The position numbers were made by a program, and so were the translations under genes. Positions 40,536-51,623 of a stretch of DNA of 64,000 nt are shown here, piece after piece; within the stretch, counting starts at the first letter, position 1; every line of letters starts with the position of its first letter. This DNA comes from a virus (Duplodnaviria > Caudoviricetes). The notes below the pieces were generated by a model, which saw only the letters and a program-made list of their open reading frames with translations, was not told the origin of the DNA and did not search any database. The DNA is taken from IMG/VR virus record IMGVR_UViG_3300048837_000795, positions 1,424 through 65,423 of that record, one strand, 5' to 3'.

Positions 40536-42920
40536 TTATGCCTTTACTGCCCTGGCCACGACCTGCTCGATGCGTGCCTCAAGCACGGAGAAATCGAGGG
40601 CGCTGTTGATGTTATTGCCGCCAAAGTTGAAGGCGTTGTTGATGGTGGTCGAGCGCGTCATCGCCGGGGTGGAAGGCATGGAGCTGAATGAGCCTGCACT
40701 GCCGCGCACACCCGCGCCCTGACTGCCCGCGCCTGGGGATTTGGCATTGTGTACCACCACGCCGTCTACCAGGTAGGTATGGTCGGGATGGTCGACTTCG
40801 ATGTTATAGATATCAAACTCGCCCGGGTAGGCTTCTACAAACGCGACAAAGGCCGGCGTTTTGGAAACCAGCATCTCGCCGGGCGCAAGATCGCATGCTT
40901 CGACCCAGCCGCGGGCAAATGTTTTAAATCTGTGATTGGGTGAGCAGTGATACTGCCGTCCGTCATCGATATACACGCTGACCAGGTCGCTGCGCACCGA
41001 ATGGATGGTCTTTGCCACCAGCGCCGCGACTTGCTCGCCGTCATCGCGCATCAACAAAACTTTGTCGCCCACGCGCAGATCAGCAATCATGGTCATGCCG
41101 CCCGGCACATTGACCGGGGTTGACGCCACAAAGCAGGTGCCAGGCGGGTCAGATGCCGGGCCTGAGCGCGCGCCGTTGATCAGCCGCACCAAATTGTTAA
41201 ACCACTTGGTCAGGTCCTGGAGTTTGCCCGACGCCCACTCGAAGGCCCGCCCTAAAACGTCGCGGATGGTTTTGGCGGCGTCCTCGATCAGCGGGCCAAA
41301 TGTCTGCGAGAGCCAGTCGCCAAACCCGGTCAGCAGCGGGAACAGGGTCTCGCTGATAAACTTCCACACTTCGGTCAGCGCGGGTAACAGCGTCTCGGTC
41401 CAGACCTTACCCAATTCCTCCAGCGCCAGGCCAAACACCGCGCCGAGGAAATCGGTAAACGACTGGAAAAACGGGAACAGCACCGTGGTCATCCATGTCC
41501 ACACACGCTGGATTGCCGGCAGCAGCGTATCTTCCCAGAAGGCCCTGAGTGACTCGATAGCCAGCGGAATATTGGTCGCCAGCCAGTCCCACATGGTTTG
41601 GAAGAGCGGGAAGAGGTTGGCCTGGATCCACTCCCACACCGACATAATCGCCGGCAGTAATGTCTCTTCCCAGAAGCCTTTCAAAATCTCGATGGCCGCC
41701 GGCACGTTGACCGCCAGCCAGTTCCACAGCTGCTGTAAGGCCGGCCTTACCGTACCCTCCCAGAACTGGGTCAGGGCGTCGCGCATGCCCAAAAAGTTGT
41801 TTTCCCAGGCGTAGGCCAGCGCGGCCACGACCGCGGCGACCAGCAGCAGCACGCCGATCAGCGGCGCGGCAGCGGTGACCATCGCTACGATCGCCGGGAT
41901 GGCCGCGGCGATGGTGGTATAGGCCCATACTGCCACAGCCACGGCAATGGCCGCCAGCACCCCCACAATAATAGGCTTATTGGCCATCAGCCAGTTGAAT
42001 CCGGCCTGGAGGATATTAAAGGCGATGGGCATGGCGGTAATAATCACGTTGGCAATGCGCGAGATAAGGCCGGCGATTTGCGGCAATATCTCGCGCACCT
42101 TCGGCAGCGCTTTGCGGGCCAGCTCCATAAAACGTTTGGCCAGGTCCATCACTGCCGGCATAAGTTCTTTGCCAAGCTGCACAAACAGGCCCTGCCCGGC
42201 CATCTTCAAAAACTCAAGCTGTTTCTGCAGCTCGATCGACCCGTCAACAGTATCCCCGCTCAGCGACAGGCCCAATTCTTTGGCCATCGCGTCAGCCTCG
42301 GCAAAGCCGTCGGTGGTCAGCGCGCCTAACGTGTCGGTCAAATCTTTGCCCGACTTGCCAAACAGCTCAACCATCAGCTTGGTCTTTTCCAGCCCGTCCG
42401 GCATGAGCGCCAGTTTATCGGCCACGGCGGTGATGATATCGGTCGACGGTAGTATGTTGCCGTTCGCGTCGCGGAAAGCAATGCCCAGCTTATCCATTAC
42501 CGCCCCGGTTGCGCCCAGCTCGCCCTTGCTGTCGACCAGCCCGCGGGTAAGGAAGGCCATCTGCCCGGTAATGCCCTCGACATTGCCGCCCACGCGCTGG
42601 ATTGCCACGGCCAGCGCCGACGACTCTTCGGCCGACGTGCCCAGCACATCGCCAATGCTGTCGACCGTGCCGGCCCAGCCCATCATGGCCGGGATCGCCG
42701 CGAGCGCCGCGCCGGCCAGCGTGCCGACCGCCGCGGCGGCAGCGCCTAACGCCCCCATCACCACCGCCCCACCCACGCGGGACAAACCTTCGGTCATACG
42801 CGCGCCCGCGCTCTCAGTCTCATCCTTGCCGGTCTTTGTCGCGGCTAAGTATTCCCGCATACCAGCCAGGAAGTCCGCGTTTTTGAAAATAGCCTCAAGG
42901 CCGATCTGCTCTAAACCCAT
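40536..42920 (-). CDS. Tape measure protein with a C-terminal Hint domain
   Basis: LFGKSG tape-measure motif, W-periodic amphipathic repeats, TM region; CF...VHN Hint domain at 40746-41135. Confidence 0.9.
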   Translation of the reverse strand: MGLEQIGLEAIFKNADFLAGMREYLAATKTGKDETESAGARMTEGLSRVGGAVVMGALGAAAAAVGTLAGAALAAIPAMMGWAGTVDSIGDVLGTSAEESSALAVAIQRVGGNVEGITGQMAFLTRGLVDSKGELGATGAVMDKLGIAFRDANGNILPSTDIITAVADKLALMPDGLEKTKLMVELFGKSGKDLTDTLGALTTDGFAEADAMAKELGLSLSGDTVDGSIELQKQLEFLKMAGQGLFVQLGKELMPAVMDLAKRFMELARKALPKVREILPQIAGLISRIANVIITAMPIAFNILQAGFNWLMANKPIIVGVLAAIAVAVAVWAYTTIAAAIPAIVAMVTAAAPLIGVLLLVAAVVAALAYAWENNFLGMRDALTQFWEGTVRPALQQLWNWLAVNVPAAIEILKGFWEETLLPAIMSVWEWIQANLFPLFQTMWDWLATNIPLAIESLRAFWEDTLLPAIQRVWTWMTTVLFPFFQSFTDFLGAVFGLALEELGKVWTETLLPALTEVWKFISETLFPLLTGFGDWLSQTFGPLIEDAAKTIRDVLGRAFEWASGKLQDLTKWFNNLVRLINGARSGPASDPPGTCFVASTPVNVPGGMTMIADLRVGDKVLLMRDDGEQVAALVAKTIHSVRSDLVSVYIDDGRQYHCSPNHRFKTFARGWVEACDLAPGEMLVSKTPAFVAFVEAYPGEFDIYNIEVDHPDHTYLVDGVVVHNAKSPGAGSQGAGVRGSAGSFSSMPSTPAMTRSTTINNAFNFGGNNINSALDFSVLEARIEQVVARAVKA

Positions 42921-43864: not shown

Positions 43865-45346
43865 TTAGTTTTCGTTGATCTTGAGCAGCAGCCCGGTGCC
43901 GCCGTTGGCCTCGCCAACCGCGTAGCAGCTGTTTTCCGTCAGCGCCTTGACCGCGTTCAGCCCGCTGTTGAGCGGGGTGGTCAGCGCTAACCAGTTAGCC
44001 CCACCGTCAATGGTGCGCAGCACGGTGCCGACCGGAGCCGCGGTGTTGGAGGCCATAAACCCAACGAAGTCATTGACGTAATCGATATCGCGCACCTGTC
44101 CGATGCCCGAGCCTGTCCAACCAGTGATGCCGACCCAGGTCGTGCCGAAATCGTTGGACTGGTAGAGCAGGCCTGTCGCGGTGCCGACCTGCACGCGCCG
44201 GTCGTTGAAGACAAAGACGCAGTTGAGGCCAGGTGTACCGGTCACTACCGCGCCGGCGGTCCAGGTCTCGCCGCCGTCGCGGGTCACCGCGGTCACGCCA
44301 GAAGCTGCCACGGCCACGCCGTATTTTTCGTCGGCAAAATGCACGTGGCTGTATGCGCCGGCAGTGATCACGCCGCTTTCAACCGCGCGCCAGGTCTCGC
44401 CGCCGTCAGTCGATTTGTAGATATAACCAGCCTTGCCGGCCAGCAAAATCATGTCACGCGATAAGGCAAACAGGCAGCCGCCTGCCGAAGCGCCGTGGCC
44501 AGCCGCCGCGCCGCCAATCGATTTCAGCGTCCAGGATGCCCCGGCGTTGTCCGAGTATGCGACCTGACCCTGACCGCCCGCCGGGCCTTCCTTACCGGCT
44601 AAATATCGCCGGCCTGTTTTGCCAATCGGGAAGGCGGTGATGGCCATCGTGTTGATCCCTGCCCCAAACGGGTCCGCAGCGCCGGCGGCCCAGGTCGCAC
44701 CGTCCGAGGTGAACAGAATATTGCCGGTGGCGGGTCCTGCCGCGCTGTCAGCCGCGATAACAGCCACGTCGCCAGGATCGACCGCCTGGCCGCAGTCGCC
44801 CAAACACTGCCCGGCCGCGTCGGCCCAGATATCATTCAGCGACTGGGTTTCGGACAGCGCCACGCGCCCCACCGAAACCTCCACCGCCTCGATCAGCGGA
44901 GGCCAGGCCTGCACGCTCATGGCGTGGGTAGCGTCGTTGGCCTCATTGTGATGCACGCGGCCTGCGTAGGTGATCGAGTCGATGTTGATGTGATGCAGCA
45001 CCTGCGCCCGCTCGTAGTTGAGCGGGTTGCTTTTATTGCTGCAGGTCGACAGCATGATGTACAGCGCGCCGTTGGAGCAGCGCGCCTTTTCGAGATAGTC
45101 GCGGGTTTTCTTGCTCATGCCGGTAATGGTGGTGGTCACCGGCTCAGGCGGGGCTTTGCGCTGTCCGATCACGTCCCAGCCAGAGCGGTCGGCGCGAAAA
45201 GCTTGATTGATTTCAATTTCCCCCTGGGGGGCCTCAATATCATCGACGTCGTGGCAGCCGAGCCATTTGAGCTCAGTTCCCGGCCCATCGGGCTGGAAGA
45301 AAACTGACCCGTCGCCGGAATTGTATACATAATCACCAGTAGGCAT
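43865..45346 (-). CDS. Major tail tube protein with C-terminal BNR/Asp-box beta-propeller
   Basis: Position; repeated S/T-x-D-x-G-x-T/S-W boxes. Confidence 0.7.
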   Translation of the reverse strand: MPTGDYVYNSGDGSVFFQPDGPGTELKWLGCHDVDDIEAPQGEIEINQAFRADRSGWDVIGQRKAPPEPVTTTITGMSKKTRDYLEKARCSNGALYIMLSTCSNKSNPLNYERAQVLHHINIDSITYAGRVHHNEANDATHAMSVQAWPPLIEAVEVSVGRVALSETQSLNDIWADAAGQCLGDCGQAVDPGDVAVIAADSAAGPATGNILFTSDGATWAAGAADPFGAGINTMAITAFPIGKTGRRYLAGKEGPAGGQGQVAYSDNAGASWTLKSIGGAAAGHGASAGGCLFALSRDMILLAGKAGYIYKSTDGGETWRAVESGVITAGAYSHVHFADEKYGVAVAASGVTAVTRDGGETWTAGAVVTGTPGLNCVFVFNDRRVQVGTATGLLYQSNDFGTTWVGITGWTGSGIGQVRDIDYVNDFVGFMASNTAAPVGTVLRTIDGGANWLALTTPLNSGLNAVKALTENSCYAVGEANGGTGLLLKINEN

Positions 45347-45348
45347 TT

Positions 45349-45741
45349 TTACGCTCCTTGATGCGCCGCTGTTTCCGCGGCATGGATCAGCGCCGCTAAA
45401 TCGACGCCGTAAACAGACTGAATCGCGCCAAACGCCGCCGGCTGGTTGCGTTCCAGGTCGGCCAGCGTCCAGATACCGCGCACGCGCAGCGCATTGGCCA
45501 GCGATGCGCCGGTAGCGCTCAGCACGGCAATCGACTCCCAGGGCAGGCCGTAGGGTACGCCCATATCAAGATCGGTTTCGCTGGCCTGATCCTCGACAAT
45601 TGCATCCGCCGGCACGATCACCCGGTATAACCCGACGCCGGCCTTGTCGTATTCGACCACGGCCGATTCGCCGCGCTGTTCTACCAGCCGGACACTGACC
45701 ATGATTACCTCAGACTCTTCGCTCATTTGCTTTTTCCTCAT
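45349..45741 (-). CDS. Head-tail region hypothetical protein
   Basis: Coupled ORF in the morphogenesis operon. Confidence 0.6.
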   Translation of the reverse strand: MRKKQMSEESEVIMVSVRLVEQRGESAVVEYDKAGVGLYRVIVPADAIVEDQASETDLDMGVPYGLPWESIAVLSATGASLANALRVRGIWTLADLERNQPAAFGAIQSVYGVDLAALIHAAETAAHQGA

Positions 45742-46253
45742 GTGCCGTGCCCGGAGGCTTTCGCGGCGTTGCGCATGGCCGCGCTCATCCAGCGCTCAAA
45801 CAGCGGCTGGTTATCCTTGATAATCAGGTCCTTCCATTCCCGCGCCGCGGTGCCGGGGTGGTTGACCTCGTCTTTCGAGGCCCATCCGCCCGACCTGGAT
45901 GCGCGGCTGGTAAAGGTGGTGCCGGGTTTGGAGCCTGCCGAATACCCGGTCTGGAAGTGCAGGCGCTTGCCGGCCTTCGCGCGGATCTTATGCGGCTTGG
46001 TGCCGTAGTTGAGCCAGTTCCATTTCTCGCGGCCGTGCGCGCTGCCGGCGAGCCGGATCTGGATGGTGATGCCTGCGCCGTCCATCTTCAGCACGGGGGT
46101 GAATTTTGGCTTGTCGCCCTGCCAGCCGGCGGTGGTTTTCTCGAAGTCTTTGACCAGGAACGGCGCGAATTTCTCCATCTCGCCGCGCAATGTGCGCATC
46201 ACGGCGTCGGAGTTGAATTCCTTTGGAACGATCGCCCGTACCTGTCCTGGCAT
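45738..46253 (-). CDS. Tail completion/neck protein (HK97 gp10-like)
   Basis: LNYGTKPHKI..K..L.F..VNHPGT. Confidence 0.7.
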   Translation of the reverse strand: MPGQVRAIVPKEFNSDAVMRTLRGEMEKFAPFLVKDFEKTTAGWQGDKPKFTPVLKMDGAGITIQIRLAGSAHGREKWNWLNYGTKPHKIRAKAGKRLHFQTGYSAGSKPGTTFTSRASRSGGWASKDEVNHPGTAAREWKDLIIKDNQPLFERWMSAAMRNAAKASGHGT

Positions 46254-46498
46254 TAGATCCTCTCAAAAACCTTGAAACCATCCTCGACTGTTTCGAGCAG
46301 CGCCTGCGCGTCTCTTGCGTCGACATAACCGCGCTGGTGGAAGAGCCCAAAGGGGTAAGCCGTTCCGGTCACCTGGCCGGGGTAGGTGTCGATATCCATG
46401 TACCCGGTGTATCGCACCGCGACTAAGCCCGCCTCGCCAATTGTTAATTCCCTCGCCGAGGGCGCCGGTTGTGTCCGGCTGCGTCCCCCTCAGCCCAT
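46253..46498 (-). CDS. 81-aa morphogenesis-region protein with in-frame TGA at codon 3 (candidate selenocysteine)
   Basis: ATG GGC TGA GGG GGA..: MG(U)GGRSR..VAVRYTG..GQVTGTAYPF..YVDARDA..FERI; starts 2 nt after the upstream stop, ends in a TAATG overlap. Confidence 0.6.
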
Positions 46499-46500
46499 CG

Positions 46501-46941
46501 CTACGGCCGCCGCCTGCGCGCATTGTCGATAATCTGCGCCTCGTTCCAGACGGTATATCCAAACTCGGCCACGCCAAAAGCCGGGAAGTCCGCGCCGGTA
46601 TCACCCGCACACAGCGGCACACGCCCCGTGCGGATCAGCTCGTACTGGCGTTCCAGCCATTCGCCCAGCACCTGCTTTCGTTCGTTATCGATGCGGCCGC
46701 AAGGGCAGCCCTTGATCACGGCCGCATCGATGATGTTGAGCTTTTTCAAATATTCCGCCGCCCATGACTCTAATGTGCAGTTGCATGCCCCTGCGGCGGC
46801 CAGCGCCACGTGGATATCCGAAGCGGCCAGGTCGAGGTAGGTATTGACAGTGTTTACCTCGCCGGCGTTGCCTAAATCAACTCCAGCGCAGAACAGGTTT
46901 TCATAATCCGCCGCTTGAGCATATCGACCAGTACAGGGCAT
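46501..46941 (-). CDS. Head-tail adaptor-like protein, Cys-rich
   Basis: YA...D; L..AASDI; W L..I..G pattern; AGGAG RBS. Confidence 0.65.
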   Translation of the reverse strand: MPCTGRYAQAADYENLFCAGVDLGNAGEVNTVNTYLDLAASDIHVALAAAGACNCTLESWAAEYLKKLNIIDAAVIKGCPCGRIDNERKQVLGEWLERQYELIRTGRVPLCAGDTGADFPAFGVAEFGYTVWNEAQIIDNARRRRP

Positions 46942-47999: not shown

Positions 48000-49148
48000 T
48001 TAAGGAGTCGTGCCGCTGGAGTAGTAGATCCCGTTGGGGTCGATGACTCCGACCCAGGCCGCGTCATCCCATCCGCCGATGACGTCGTTGACCATATACT
48101 CGATATCGCCAGTCTCGAAAGAGCCCATCAGGAACGCGGCCGGCGCGCTGCCGGAGATAACGCTGATGTTCGAGGTCTTCTGGGCAACCAGCGGGGCCTC
48201 CCAGCCGGTAAGGCGGGCCACGGGCAGGGCCTGGATTTCGTTCGGGTCAGCGAACAGATACCAGGGGATATTCGGCGCGGCGGTGCCAATGTAGGGGTCG
48301 ACCCGGTAACCGCGGATGAACTGCGGGATAACGTTTTTGTCGTTGAGTGCCGAGCCGGCAGCCAGCGTCGAGCCCAGAATGACCTGCGCCTGCATTTCCA
48401 GGATCTTAGGAATTACCAGCCAGATCCCGTTGATCGTGATCGGGTTGCCGGCAGCGTCCAGGCGCGAATTCATGGCGTTGATACCGATCGCCAGGTTGGC
48501 CGAGGTAAGGCGGCCGGTGCCGGCATACGCAGCACCCAAAGCGATCAGCGCGGCCTGCGTCAGGGCATTGTCGTACTGCGCCGAAACAAAGCTGTCCTCG
48601 AAGCGGCGTACCGCGTTGAGCATGCGCATCGGTGTCTGGCGGATCTTGCCCAGATCGTCATTCATAACGGCGCGCCAGGAAACGTCAAACTGGCGGGCGA
48701 ATTCTTCCACGCCGTAGGAAACAACCGAGTCGGAGATGTGCGTGGCCTTCGCCTCCGCTTTCTCGCGCCGGCGGTGGAGCGTGCCGGGCTCGGTCATGCG
48801 GAACCGGTCCACATCCCGGAAGTCGGGCGCGCTGTCGGGGAAGGTGTAATCGCGCCACGATCCACCCTGATAGGCGTAATCCTTGAGGAACGCCCGACTG
48901 ATCGCATCGGCGAAGTACACGTCAAAATGCGCGGTTGTCATGGCTTCACGGAACTGGCCGATATCCATGTGTTTGTACGTGTTTTGCAACTCGATCATGG
49001 CGTGGAATTCAGCCTGACCGGACTCGCCCAACCGTTCCGCTGCCCACTGGGGGACGGCGGAGGCGCGAGACAGCGCTTCGATCTGATTTGCATCGAAACC
49101 GCGCTCGGCCAGAGCGATTGATTTAACCCACTGCATTACCTGATACAT
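48000..49148 (-). CDS. Major capsid protein (HK97 fold, Mu gpT-like)
   Basis: PDFR; Y.VEEFARQF.VSW.A..NDDLG; WLVIP..LE; WYLFADP; GAGGAGG RBS. Confidence 0.85.
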   Translation of the reverse strand: MYQVMQWVKSIALAERGFDANQIEALSRASAVPQWAAERLGESGQAEFHAMIELQNTYKHMDIGQFREAMTTAHFDVYFADAISRAFLKDYAYQGGSWRDYTFPDSAPDFRDVDRFRMTEPGTLHRRREKAEAKATHISDSVVSYGVEEFARQFDVSWRAVMNDDLGKIRQTPMRMLNAVRRFEDSFVSAQYDNALTQAALIALGAAYAGTGRLTSANLAIGINAMNSRLDAAGNPITINGIWLVIPKILEMQAQVILGSTLAAGSALNDKNVIPQFIRGYRVDPYIGTAAPNIPWYLFADPNEIQALPVARLTGWEAPLVAQKTSNISVISGSAPAAFLMGSFETGDIEYMVNDVIGGWDDAAWVGVIDPNGIYYSSGTTP

Positions 49149-51206: not shown

Positions 51207-51218
51207 TATGTACCTCGC

Positions 51219-51307
51219 AAAACAAAAAGCGCCAATCCCGGTCAGGAGATTGGCGCAGAGGCTCAGAAAATAGGGTTGTTATCGAATTGTCATAATCATT
51301 ATAACGC
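51219..51307 (-). promoter_or_regulatory. Putative late promoter plus leader terminator
   Basis: GCGTTATAAT (51298-51307); TGAGCCTCTGCGCC leader; GCGCCAATC..GATTGGCGC TTTTTGTTTT. Confidence 0.7.
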
Positions 51308-51314
51308 AGCCCAT

Positions 51315-51623
51315 TTACGGGTAAAAATGCGACTGCGCCACGCTCAGCGCGCCTTCGCCGGCTACGACCCGGCTGCCCGTGCCCTCCACCCTGTAGAACC
51401 AGGTGCCGGCGCGGGTAAAGGTGACATAGAAGTGGTACTGGCCCTGCGAGTCTCGGACTACCTCGGGAGCAGCGCCGTAGACCCAGGTCGTGCGCAGACC
51501 GCCCGGGTCGGGCGAGTCGACCTTGACGGTAACCACATCCGGGTCGAGCGGCAGGCCGGTGACCAGGTCGGTAAATATTACGGTGATCAGTGCGCGGTCA
51601 CCAACGTTCCAGATATTCTCCAT
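51315..51623 (-). CDS. Small Ig-like virion protein
   Basis: GD; D..G...DP; G.YH; G.W.YR..GTG. Confidence 0.6.
   Translation of the reverse strand: MENIWNVGDRALITVIFTDLVTGLPLDPDVVTVKVDSPDPGGLRTTWVYGAAPEVVRDSQGQYHFYVTFTRAGTWFYRVEGTGSRVVAGEGALSVAQSHFYP

What the first reader, a model, noticed from the sequence alone, without database searches (positions are those of the whole stretch)
46253..46498. Hidden morphogenesis gene with in-frame UGA and SECIS-like hairpin: candidate phage selenoprotein
Seen: the only gap in the tightly packed head-tail operon is filled exactly by ATG-GGC-TGA-GGG-GGA...TAA (82 codons). It starts 2 nt after the upstream stop and overlaps the next ATG. Directly 3' of the UGA (46490-46492) the mRNA can fold as GAGGG...GCCGG-ACACAA-CCGGC-G-CCCTC, with the apical loop about 15 nt downstream. 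Known: bacterial SECIS elements lie immediately after the Sec UGA. The MG-x-GG context suits Cys or Sec, and the upstream protein is Cys-rich. TGA is a normal stop elsewhere, so this is not global recoding. Inference: the phage uses host SelABC to make an MGUGG protein, possibly tying assembly to selenium or redox state.
Basis: partly seen in the sequence, partly recalled or inferred. Interest (0 to 1): 0.8.

Follow-up and report, generated by a model that had tools for sequence, protein, structure and literature searches.

The report
Phage virion-module gene with selenocysteine codon
A small gene in the head-tail region of this uncultured phage has a UGA "stop" as its third codon exactly where related proteins have a conserved cysteine, and many related phages keep it, so it is most likely read as selenocysteine.

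Summary
The ORF is real. On the minus strand, ATG 46498, GGC, TGA 46492-46490, then 78 open codons to TAA 46253.

The decisive evidence is comparative. A profile search found 91 relatives. Of these, 36 begin M-(G/A/S/P)-C or M-C, and 13 of 16 fused forms carry the same MGCCG-type motif. At DNA level, 14 of 20 contigs carrying the family have an in-frame TGA at that Cys position and 6 have TGC/TGT. The TGA contigs fall into about five divergent lineages.

In three loci (L019, L014, L071) no canonical start lies between the TGA and the folded core. In L014 and L071 the peptide is conserved on both sides of the TGA.

TGA is otherwise an ordinary stop.

Across lineages, G-loop hairpins 16-37 nt after the TGA are enriched (p about 0.003).

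The host and its Sec machinery are unknown.

This scan has noted other candidate phage selenoprotein families on other DNA, but not this one. I found no paper reporting one.

The parts
46253..46498 (-). Whole gene: 81 residues plus stop if TGA is decoded (M-G-U-G-G-R-S-R... to ...F-E-R-I)
   Evidence: Aligns over its full length with Cys-type homologs.
46496..46498 (-). Proposed start codon ATG, 2 nt after the upstream stop (TAG 46503-46501)
   Evidence: The start codon abuts or overlaps the upstream stop in eight further distinct TGA loci (L001, L002, L005, L009, L010, L017, L019; not L014/L071). L017, L019 and L009 have GGAGG- or AAGGA-type Shine-Dalgarno sequences 8-10 nt upstream of it.
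46490..46492 (-). In-frame TGA, proposed selenocysteine codon (residue 3)
   Evidence: Aligns with the invariant Cys3 of homologs. TGA is kept in 14 of 20 contigs.
46455..46494 (-).
   Evidence: MFE -22.4 kcal/mol, z -1.31. No G in the loop, and the loop starts 15 nt after the UGA.
46450..46462 (-). Alternative small hairpin CCCUC-GGC-GAGGG, loop 32 nt after the UGA. It fits the consensus loop rule, is borderline in energy, and excludes the outer stem above.
   Evidence: -7.0 / -5.9 kcal/mol. 12.7% of 1910 other TGA sites in the window do as well.
46415..46417 (-). First canonical in-frame start after the TGA (GTG). It would give a 54-aa short form that lacks the conserved I-G-E-A-G-L-V segment.
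   Evidence: GAGG lies 13 nt upstream.
46397..46399 (-). ATG used by the database gene call (48 aa, P0003)
46501..46941 (-). Upstream 146-aa Cys-rich protein, also starting M-P-C. Invariant C3, C53, C55, C81 and C111 across 9 loci.
45738..46253 (-). Downstream 171-aa gene whose ATG overlaps the small gene's TAA. It ends in TGA.

Best explanation
Window 46498-46253 (minus strand) is a real 81-codon gene of the head-tail joining region of a siphovirus-like phage. It lies between the major capsid gene and the tape measure gene.

Proposed steps:
1. Translation starts at ATG 46498, probably coupled to termination of the upstream Cys-rich gene.
2. The third codon, UGA, is decoded as selenocysteine by the host's SelB and Sec-tRNA. 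A stem-loop in the next 15-45 nt of the mRNA directs this.
3. The product is M-G-U-G-G, then a roughly 20-residue disordered basic linker, then a compact beta-rich core.

The protein belongs to an undescribed family whose hallmark is an N-terminal M-(G/A)-C-(C)-G motif. Several lineages of the family have exchanged that Cys for UGA.

Shown: the ORF, the Cys/TGA correspondence, conservation of TGA, and translation-type constraint downstream of it.

Inferred: that the inserted residue is Sec, which hairpin acts as the SECIS, and that the host supplies the machinery.

What the Cys/Sec does is unknown. My guess is a covalent or metal link made by the flexible N-terminal arm during virion assembly.
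For: 1. Cys/TGA pair. Of 91 profile hits, 36 start M-x-C or M-C, and 13 of 16 fused forms have the same motif about 40 residues before the core. C3 is invariant in 23 aligned Cys-type members. The window's M-G-TGA-G-G aligns with it.

2. TGA conservation. 14 of 20 contigs have TGA there (window, L001, L002, L005, L009/12/13/24, L010, L014, L017/22, L019, L071). 6 have TGC/TGT (L008, L016, L021, L023, L070, L055). The second codon varies (GGC, GGT, TCT, GCT), including a synonymous GGC/GGT change.

3. More than one lineage. Starred branches force at least 2 changes of the TGA label, and the best tree needs 6.

4. The UGA must be passed.
- L019 has no ATG/GTG/TTG in the 49 codons between the TGA and the F-G motif. 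In L014 the first is at codon 41, and in L071 at codon 50.
- In the window the first is at codon 25, after the conserved G-E-x-G-L-V.
- L014 and L071 have a 17-residue leader that is conserved in frame before the TGA.

5. Coding-type substitutions after the TGA. Differences by codon position in the linker are [7,7,13] for L002/L005 and [8,6,15] for L010/L019.

6. Good Shine-Dalgarno sequences sit 8-10 nt before the start codon that precedes the TGA in L017, L019 and L009.

7. TGA is otherwise a stop, and no tRNA is encoded in the window or in two complete relatives.

8. Hairpins of the consensus type (G in the loop, 16-37 nt) are better than at other TGA sites of the same loci. The fractions of other sites doing as well are 0.127, 0.121, 0.022, 0.026, 0.352, 0.047, 0/90, 0.026 and 0.068. 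Fisher p is 2.5e-5 for all nine loci and 0.0029 with one locus per lineage. L002 and L005 share one with a compensatory U-A to C-G change (read by eye).
Against: - The window's own hairpins are weak evidence. The G-loop alternative is matched by 12.7% of other TGA sites.
- L009, found on four contigs, has no credible hairpin (-0.8 kcal/mol; 35% of controls do as well).
- 2 of 5 Cys-type loci have equally good hairpins (L023 -9.4, L055 -8.9), so local GC-rich Gly/Ala/Arg codons may inflate the signal.
- In the window clade a canonical start sits just before the core in 4 of 4 loci and in 4 of 4 database calls, so a short form without the N-terminus is possible.
- The window/L001 linker shows no codon-position bias ([13,12,14]).
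- The host is unknown, so presence of selA/B/C/D is untested. The phage record has no SelA and no tRNA-Sec.
- Sec at codon 3 puts the SECIS next to the initiation site. I saw no precedent for this in the papers I read.
- The loci were found with patterns taken from the window's clade, so 14 of 20 is not an unbiased frequency.
Confidence: 0.65

Rival explanations
1. The UGA is a real stop. The gene starts at GTG 46417 (54 aa) or ATG 46399 (48 aa). ATG-GGC-TGA is a two-codon mini-ORF left over from a Cys-to-stop mutation, or kept only to couple ribosomes from the upstream gene.
For: - All six closest database proteins are called this way.
- A canonical start lies one or two codons before the core in 4 of 4 window-clade loci, and the G-E-G-G codons upstream of it read as GAGGGAGG in L002 and L005.
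- The window's hairpin is not significant.
- Two-codon minigenes are known from phage lambda (recalled, not checked here).
Against: - L019, L014 and L071 have no usable start after the TGA.
- The leader before the TGA is conserved in frame in L014 and L071.
- The stop sits at the Cys position in every one of 10 distinct TGA sequences, never elsewhere in the N-terminus.
- The Leu of G-L-V uses TTA, TTG and CTG in different loci, which means selection on the protein upstream of the supposed start.
- Strong Shine-Dalgarno sequences serve the start before the TGA.
Confidence: 0.15
2. The UGA is passed by ordinary near-cognate readthrough (Trp or Cys tRNA) without SelB or a SECIS. It serves as a throttle that keeps the full-length protein scarce, perhaps beside a short form from GTG 46417.
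For: - L009 lacks any hairpin, and the window's hairpin does not fit the consensus.
- No information on host Sec genes.
- Hairpins occur in 2 of 5 Cys-type loci too.
Against: - A throttle could sit at any codon, yet the TGA always replaces the conserved Cys.
- Consensus-type hairpins are enriched after these TGAs (p 0.0029 with one locus per lineage).
- The base after the TGA is G in 7 of 10 distinct sequences, which I recall as not the leakiest context (recalled, not tested).
Confidence: 0.17
3. Sequencing or assembly error, or a private nonsense mutation in a dying gene.
For: No reads could be laid on the window: no sequencing run was listed.
Against: The same TGA stands in 14 contigs from separate assemblies, with the frame kept through linkers of 48, 51 and 57 nt.
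Confidence: 0.02

Closest known systems
Bacterial selenoprotein genes with an in-ORF SECIS read by SelB. The prototype is the E. coli formate dehydrogenases; the consensus bSECIS model is described in PMC13188914 (passages read).
   Same: In-frame UGA that aligns with Cys in homologs. TGA-containing homologs occur in several lineages. Gene calls are truncated at the UGA. A stem-loop with a G-rich apical loop lies 18-35 nt downstream in most lineages.
   Different: - Encoded by phages, in a virion morphogenesis module, not in an oxidoreductase.
- Sec is at residue 3 (residue 18 in L014 and L071), so the putative SECIS sits just beyond the initiation site.
- There is no partner Cys in a CxxU-type motif in most members.
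- The window's own hairpin does not satisfy the consensus.
- The machinery would have to be borrowed from an unknown host.
Selenoproteins of eukaryotic viruses: the glutathione peroxidases of molluscum contagiosum virus and fowlpox virus. [quoted passage not shown]
   Same: A virus encodes a UGA-Sec protein and relies on host machinery. A relative (canarypox) has Cys with a fossil SECIS, much as Cys-type L023 keeps a strong hairpin.
   Different: Those are captured host enzymes with eukaryotic SECIS elements. This is a phage-specific structural-module protein with a bacterial-style in-ORF element. 'Bacteriophage' occurs 0 times in that review.
Other candidate phage selenoprotein families noted earlier in this scan (e1-5362015, e1-5998498, e1-6036874 and others). 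These are AI notes, not publications.
   Same: Same kind of evidence: UGA at a Cys position kept across many phage relatives, followed by a hairpin.
   Different: Different protein families. Here the codon is at the very N-terminus.

Membership tests
Bacterial-type selenoprotein gene | In-frame UGA inside a conserved ORF, kept in homologs from other genomes | tested here: met
   14 of 20 contigs, 10 distinct sequences, about five lineages.
Bacterial-type selenoprotein gene | Cys-containing homologs whose Cys aligns with the UGA | tested here: met
   36 of 91 relatives start M-x-C or M-C. C3 is invariant in 23 aligned members. Alignment with the window.
Bacterial-type selenoprotein gene | bSECIS stem-loop after the UGA: 3-9 nt loop, stem of at least 4 bp, G in the first two loop positions, 16-37 nt from the UGA, MFE at most -7.5 kcal/mol (PMC13188914) | tested here: inconclusive
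The alternative GGC-loop hairpin at 32 nt scores -5.9 to -7.0. Family: 5 of 10 distinct loci have hairpin-only energy at or below -7.5, L009 has none, and the enrichment p is 0.0029.
Bacterial-type selenoprotein gene | Organism has selA, selB, selC (tRNA-Sec) and selD | not testable with these tools
   The host is unknown. The phage record has no SelA, no tRNA-Sec and no tRNA. The same holds for five relatives for tRNA-Sec and for two complete relatives for tRNAs.
Bacterial-type selenoprotein gene | Selenium found in the protein | not testable with these tools
   Needs 75Se labelling or mass spectrometry.
Undescribed M-(G/A)-C-(C)-G small phage protein family (my name) | N-terminal Cys motif, disordered basic linker, G-E-x-G-(L/M)-V strand, and a core with Y-x-G, Y-x-F-G, G-Y-V-D-x-R-D and E-D-G-x-x-V-F | tested here: met
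   Alignments. Model pLDDT 85.6, with residues 1-24 unstructured and the core at 83-96. No Pfam, PHROG or NCBIfam family matches.
Global stop-codon reassignment (TGA as sense, codes 4 or 25) | Many genes interrupted by TGA; TGA not used as a terminator | tested here: not met
   Table 11 already gives 91-93% coverage. TGA ends 35 of 84, 35 of 70 and 29 of 75 crude ORFs in the window, G002 and G004.

The most novel reading that the evidence does not exclude
A family of phage virion-assembly proteins carries selenocysteine at the tip of a flexible N-terminal arm. This would be the closest Sec to a start codon that I know of. Its use would be to make a covalent selenium-sulfur or selenium-selenium staple, or a metal site, with the neighbouring Cys-rich protein inside the reducing host cytoplasm. 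Cysteine disulfides would not hold there (the redox argument is recalled, not tested). Virion assembly and host range of these phages would then depend on the host's selenocysteine system and on selenium supply.
Probability: 0.15. Interest if true: 0.9.

Novelty: new variant of a known kind. Interest (0 to 1): 0.75.

Why it matters
- **Selenoproteins in phages.** In the papers I could search, proven viral selenoproteins are limited to two poxvirus enzymes (PMC6769590). Recent surveys and databases of bacterial selenoproteins do not mention phages ('phage' occurs 0 times in PMC13188914, PMC13326102 and PMC12013277). A structural-module selenoprotein would extend Sec use beyond redox enzymes to virus assembly.
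- **Host dependence.** It would make phage infectivity depend on a host trait that only some bacteria have.
- **Mechanism.** UGA at codon 3 would test how close to initiation a SelB/SECIS complex can work.
- **Annotation.** Gene callers cut these genes short, which hides a conserved N-terminal motif.

Tried and rejected
- **Cultured phages.** blastn of the locus and tblastn of the 78-aa reading, of P0010 and of P0017 gave no match.
- **Rfam.** No hit at gathering scores on the whole window, and none at E up to 10 on 46380-46530.
- **Family libraries.** No Pfam, PHROG or NCBIfam family for the small protein, its Cys-type relatives or the three neighbouring proteins. No relative by sequence among solved structures (best E 0.04-0.62).
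- **Fold searches with the small-protein model.**
  - Foldseek against the PDB found nothing at E up to 0.001.
  - Foldseek against BFVD gave a best E of 7.6e-3, all hits uncharacterized.
  - VIA-align gave a best Z of 4.7 (B. subtilis YqbF, 44 residues aligned, rmsd 1.8) and Z 3.9 for the C-terminal domain of lambda gpFI. These are below the level the tool calls meaningful, so they are leads only.
- **Upstream protein.** Its structure came out at pLDDT 48.3, too poor to search with.
- **Complex prediction.** The L008 Cys-rich protein with the L008 small protein gave no verdict (score 0.00). This counts neither way.
- **Sequencing runs.** The look-up of sequencing runs listed none, so the TGA could not be checked in reads and read laying was not used.
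- **Genome collection.**
  - The search for related loci found no relative.
  - The DNA pattern gave 37 stretches, of which 1 is a family member: L055, a GT2-fused Cys type in a Chloroflexota MAG. No host could be assigned.
- **More viral scans.** Scans with A1, A2 and A7 returned only the same two contigs. Two relaxed DNA patterns added only L070 and L071.
- **Protein atlas.** The search for P0010 gave scores of 0.84-0.85, all hypothetical proteins.
- **Frameshift fusion, considered and dropped.** A frameshift fusion with the upstream gene is unlikely. The frame offset between the upstream stop and the start is 2, 2, 2 and 1 in the window, L001, L002 and L005.
- **ATT start, considered and dropped.** An ATT start at 46441-46439, with GAGGG 8 nt upstream, has no counterpart in L005, L019 or L014.
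- **Phage-encoded suppressor tRNA, considered and dropped.** None was found.
- **Papers.** The searches were 'selenoprotein' + 'bacteriophage' (272 papers, 20 listed), 'selenocysteine' + 'phage genome' + 'SECIS' (5), 'selenoprotein' + 'phage-encoded' (7) and 'viral selenoprotein' (11). I saw the listings only, apart from the passages cited. None reports a natural phage selenoprotein. Supplements were closed.
Full report
**What is in the window**

The feature is on the minus strand. A 146-aa ORF (46941-46501) ends with TAG. Two bases later come ATG (46498-46496), GGC and TGA (46492-46490). The frame then stays open for 78 codons to TAA 46255-46253, whose last A is the first base of the next gene's ATG.

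The first canonical start after the TGA is GTG 46417 (54 aa). The database gene call uses ATG 46399 (48 aa, P0003).

The window is most of a 65,423-bp IMG/VR virus record. The surrounding genes on the minus strand are:
- a major capsid protein (48000-49148; Phage_capsid_4 at 8.4e-25);
- three small proteins;
- this gene;
- proteins of 171, 130 and 493 aa;
- a tape measure protein (40536-42920).

The gene therefore sits where head-tail joining proteins normally lie. That placement is an inference from gene order.

Gaps of 36 to 417 nt occur elsewhere in the module (coordinates).

**Close relatives**

A word-indexed search with the 78-aa reading found 6 proteins of 48-64 aa among 13 candidates. 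On their own these would suggest a short gene.

The DNA says otherwise. Two viral contigs (L001, L002) and one metagenome contig (L005) all carry ATG-GGY-TGA in frame with the small gene, directly at or 4 nt after the upstream stop. That makes 4 of 4 loci. L005 has GGT instead of GGC. The stretch from the TGA to the conserved G-E-x-G motif is 51, 48, 57 and 57 nt long, and it is otherwise so diverged between the window and L001 that it barely aligns.

**The family**

A profile search of 1.84 billion representatives gave 91 hits at E up to 1e-3, of which 23 are at E up to 1e-10. Sorted by where the core begins:
- 36 have an N-terminal extension with Cys within the first six residues. Typical starts are MGC, MAC, MC, MGCC and MCC. 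One of these, P0068, is doubtful.
- 16 carry the module inside larger proteins, mostly family-2 glycosyltransferases. 13 of these 16 have the same (M)-(G/A)-C-C-G motif about 40 residues before the core.
- 20 have an extension without Cys.
- 19 are short calls.

At least one 'no-Cys' call is a mis-called start. P0016 begins at the second Met of what L008 encodes as M-G-C-M-G-R-Q-Q.

In an alignment of 23 Cys-type members, C3 is invariant. The window's M-G-TGA-G-G-R-S aligns with M-G-C-G-G, M-A-C-K-G-R-Q and the like.

**More loci**

A degenerate DNA pattern for F-G-x5-G-Y-V-D-x-R-D found 17 stretches in the viral collection. Three are unrelated (L011, L015, L018). Of the 14 family loci, 10 have TGA at the Cys position and 4 have Cys. 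Two relaxed patterns added L070 (Cys type, glycosyltransferase-fused) and L071 (TGA type). The genome collection gave one true member among 37 stretches: L055, a fused Cys type in a Chloroflexota MAG.

In total, 14 of 20 contigs have TGA and 6 have TGC or TGT. The 14 TGA contigs give 10 distinct sequences:
- window, L001, L002 and L005 (M-G-TGA);
- L009, on four contigs (M-G-TGA);
- L017, on two contigs (M-A-TGA-G-C);
- L010 (GTG-TCT-TGA);
- L019 (GTG-GCT-TGA);
- L014 and L071, where the TGA is codon 18 after a conserved 17-residue leader.

The patterns came from the window's clade, so 14 of 20 is not an unbiased frequency.

A maximum-likelihood tree is poorly resolved, with 82 columns for 53 rows. 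Its well-supported branches still force at least two changes of the TGA label, and the best tree needs six.

**Is the UGA translated?**

Several independent observations say yes.
- L019 has no ATG, GTG or TTG in the 49 codons between the TGA and the F-G motif. L014 has its first at codon 41 and L071 at codon 50, both deep in the core.
- In L014 and L071 the leader before the TGA is conserved in frame (A-P-x-A-R-Y/F), with synonymous third-position changes (read by eye).
- The linker after the TGA shows an excess of third-position differences in two of three pairs: [7,7,13] for L002/L005 and [8,6,15] for L010/L019. The window/L001 pair shows none ([13,12,14]).
- The Leu of the conserved G-L-V upstream of GTG 46417 is encoded by TTA, TTG and CTG in different loci.
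- L017, L019 and L009 have GGAGG- or AAGGA-type ribosome-binding sites 8-10 nt before the start codon that precedes the TGA. These would be pointless for a two-codon ORF.

**Is it a changed genetic code or a phage suppressor?**

No. Under table 11 the crude ORF sets already cover 91-93% of the window and of two complete relatives (G002 and G004, both with terminal repeats). TGA ends 35 of 84, 35 of 70 and 29 of 75 of these ORFs. Neither the window nor G002 or G004 encodes any tRNA. No tRNA-Sec match was found in the window or in five relatives.

**The hairpin**

However, the 66-nt stretch is no more stable than shuffles (z -1.31). The same test on L001, L002 and L005 gave z of +0.70, -1.72 and -1.28.

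I then coded the published consensus from the Fig. 2 legend of PMC13188914: loop of 3-9 nt, stem of at least 4 bp, G in the first two loop positions, 16-37 nt from the UGA. I compared each locus with all other TGA sites in the same locus.

| Locus | Best hairpin-only energy (kcal/mol) | Fraction of control sites as good |
|---|---|---|
| window | -5.9 | 0.127 |
| L001 | -6.4 | 0.121 |
| L002 | -9.8 | 0.022 |
| L005 | -9.1 | 0.026 |
| L009 | -0.8 | 0.352 |
| L010 | -9.9 | 0.047 |
| L017 | -14.2 | 0 of 90 |
| L019 | -10.2 | 0.026 |
| L014 | -6.2 | 0.068 |
| L071 | -5.1 | 0.176 |

L071 comes and is not included in the combined tests. Fisher's combination gives p = 2.5e-5 for nine loci, which are not independent, and p = 0.0029 with one locus per lineage.

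Among five Cys-type loci, three have no such hairpin. L023 (-9.4) and L055 (-8.9) do. L023 may be a recent convert that kept a fossil element, as described for canarypox in PMC6769590, or the signal may partly reflect GC-rich codons.

My reading is that the hairpin evidence supports Sec at the level of the family but is inconclusive for the window itself. There, either the no-G hairpin at 15 nt or the GGC-loop hairpin at 32 nt could serve.

**The protein**

AlphaFold with 31 sequences gives mean pLDDT 85.6. Residues 1-24 have no secondary structure (block means 65 and 59). The core has four or five strands and one helix, at 83-96. No fold match reached a meaningful score.

The upstream protein also begins M-x-C in 9 of 9 loci and has five invariant Cys. 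It always keeps Cys codons. Whether the two proteins touch is unknown.

The function of the Cys/Sec is therefore open. I favour a link, covalent or through a metal, made by the flexible arm during assembly. That is a guess.

**Verdict**

I give 0.65 to selenocysteine, 0.17 to SECIS-independent readthrough, 0.15 to a true stop with a short protein from GTG 46417, and 0.02 to error. A short form may also be made alongside the long one in the window's clade.

**Standing in print**

My four searches turned up no natural phage selenoprotein. A 2019 review calls two poxvirus enzymes the only proven viral selenoproteins. A 2026 review, a database paper and a predictor paper on bacterial selenoproteins do not contain the word 'phage'.

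Earlier AI notes of this scan describe other candidate phage selenoprotein families on other DNA. None matches this protein.

Noticed in passing
window 46501-46941 (-), and L001, L002, L005, L008, L009, L010, L019, L023: The upstream 146-aa protein also starts M-x-C in 9 of 9 loci and has invariant C3, C53, C55, C81 and C111 (motifs A-C-x-C and P-C). L010 and L019 carry a roughly 75-residue insert after the N-terminus. No family matches it, and its model was poor (pLDDT 48.3).
   Followed up: partly
L021, L055, L070; proteins P0044, P0047, P0060, P0079: The whole module (MGCCG motif, linker, core) also occurs inside 400-650-aa family-2 glycosyltransferases, after a conserved G-E-R-P, sometimes followed by a helix-hairpin-helix domain. 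One case is in a Chloroflexota MAG. The Met is kept even though it is internal, so an internal start is possible.
   Followed up: partly
L023 545-793 (-): A Cys-type M-G-C-G-G gene that still has a 7-bp hairpin with a GGC loop 23 nt after the Cys codon (-9.4 kcal/mol). This may be a fossil SECIS after a Sec-to-Cys change.
   Followed up: no
L014 and L071: In this sub-lineage the TGA is codon 18, after a conserved 17-residue leader ending A-P-x-A-R-Y/F. The putative Sec is therefore not always N-terminal.
   Followed up: partly
ARAGORN found no tRNA in the window, and Rfam found nothing at gathering score. A CUA anticodon would in any case read UAG, not UGA.
   Followed up: partly
window 43865-45346 (-): A 493-aa protein with BNR/Asp-box repeats (PF02012 1.4e-8; PSII_BNR 8.2e-8) lies in the position where a major tail or tail-decorating protein would be expected.
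   Followed up: no
window 51207-51623: A 417-nt stretch without a long minus-strand ORF lies between the 505-aa and 558-aa genes of the packaging/head module.
   Followed up: no
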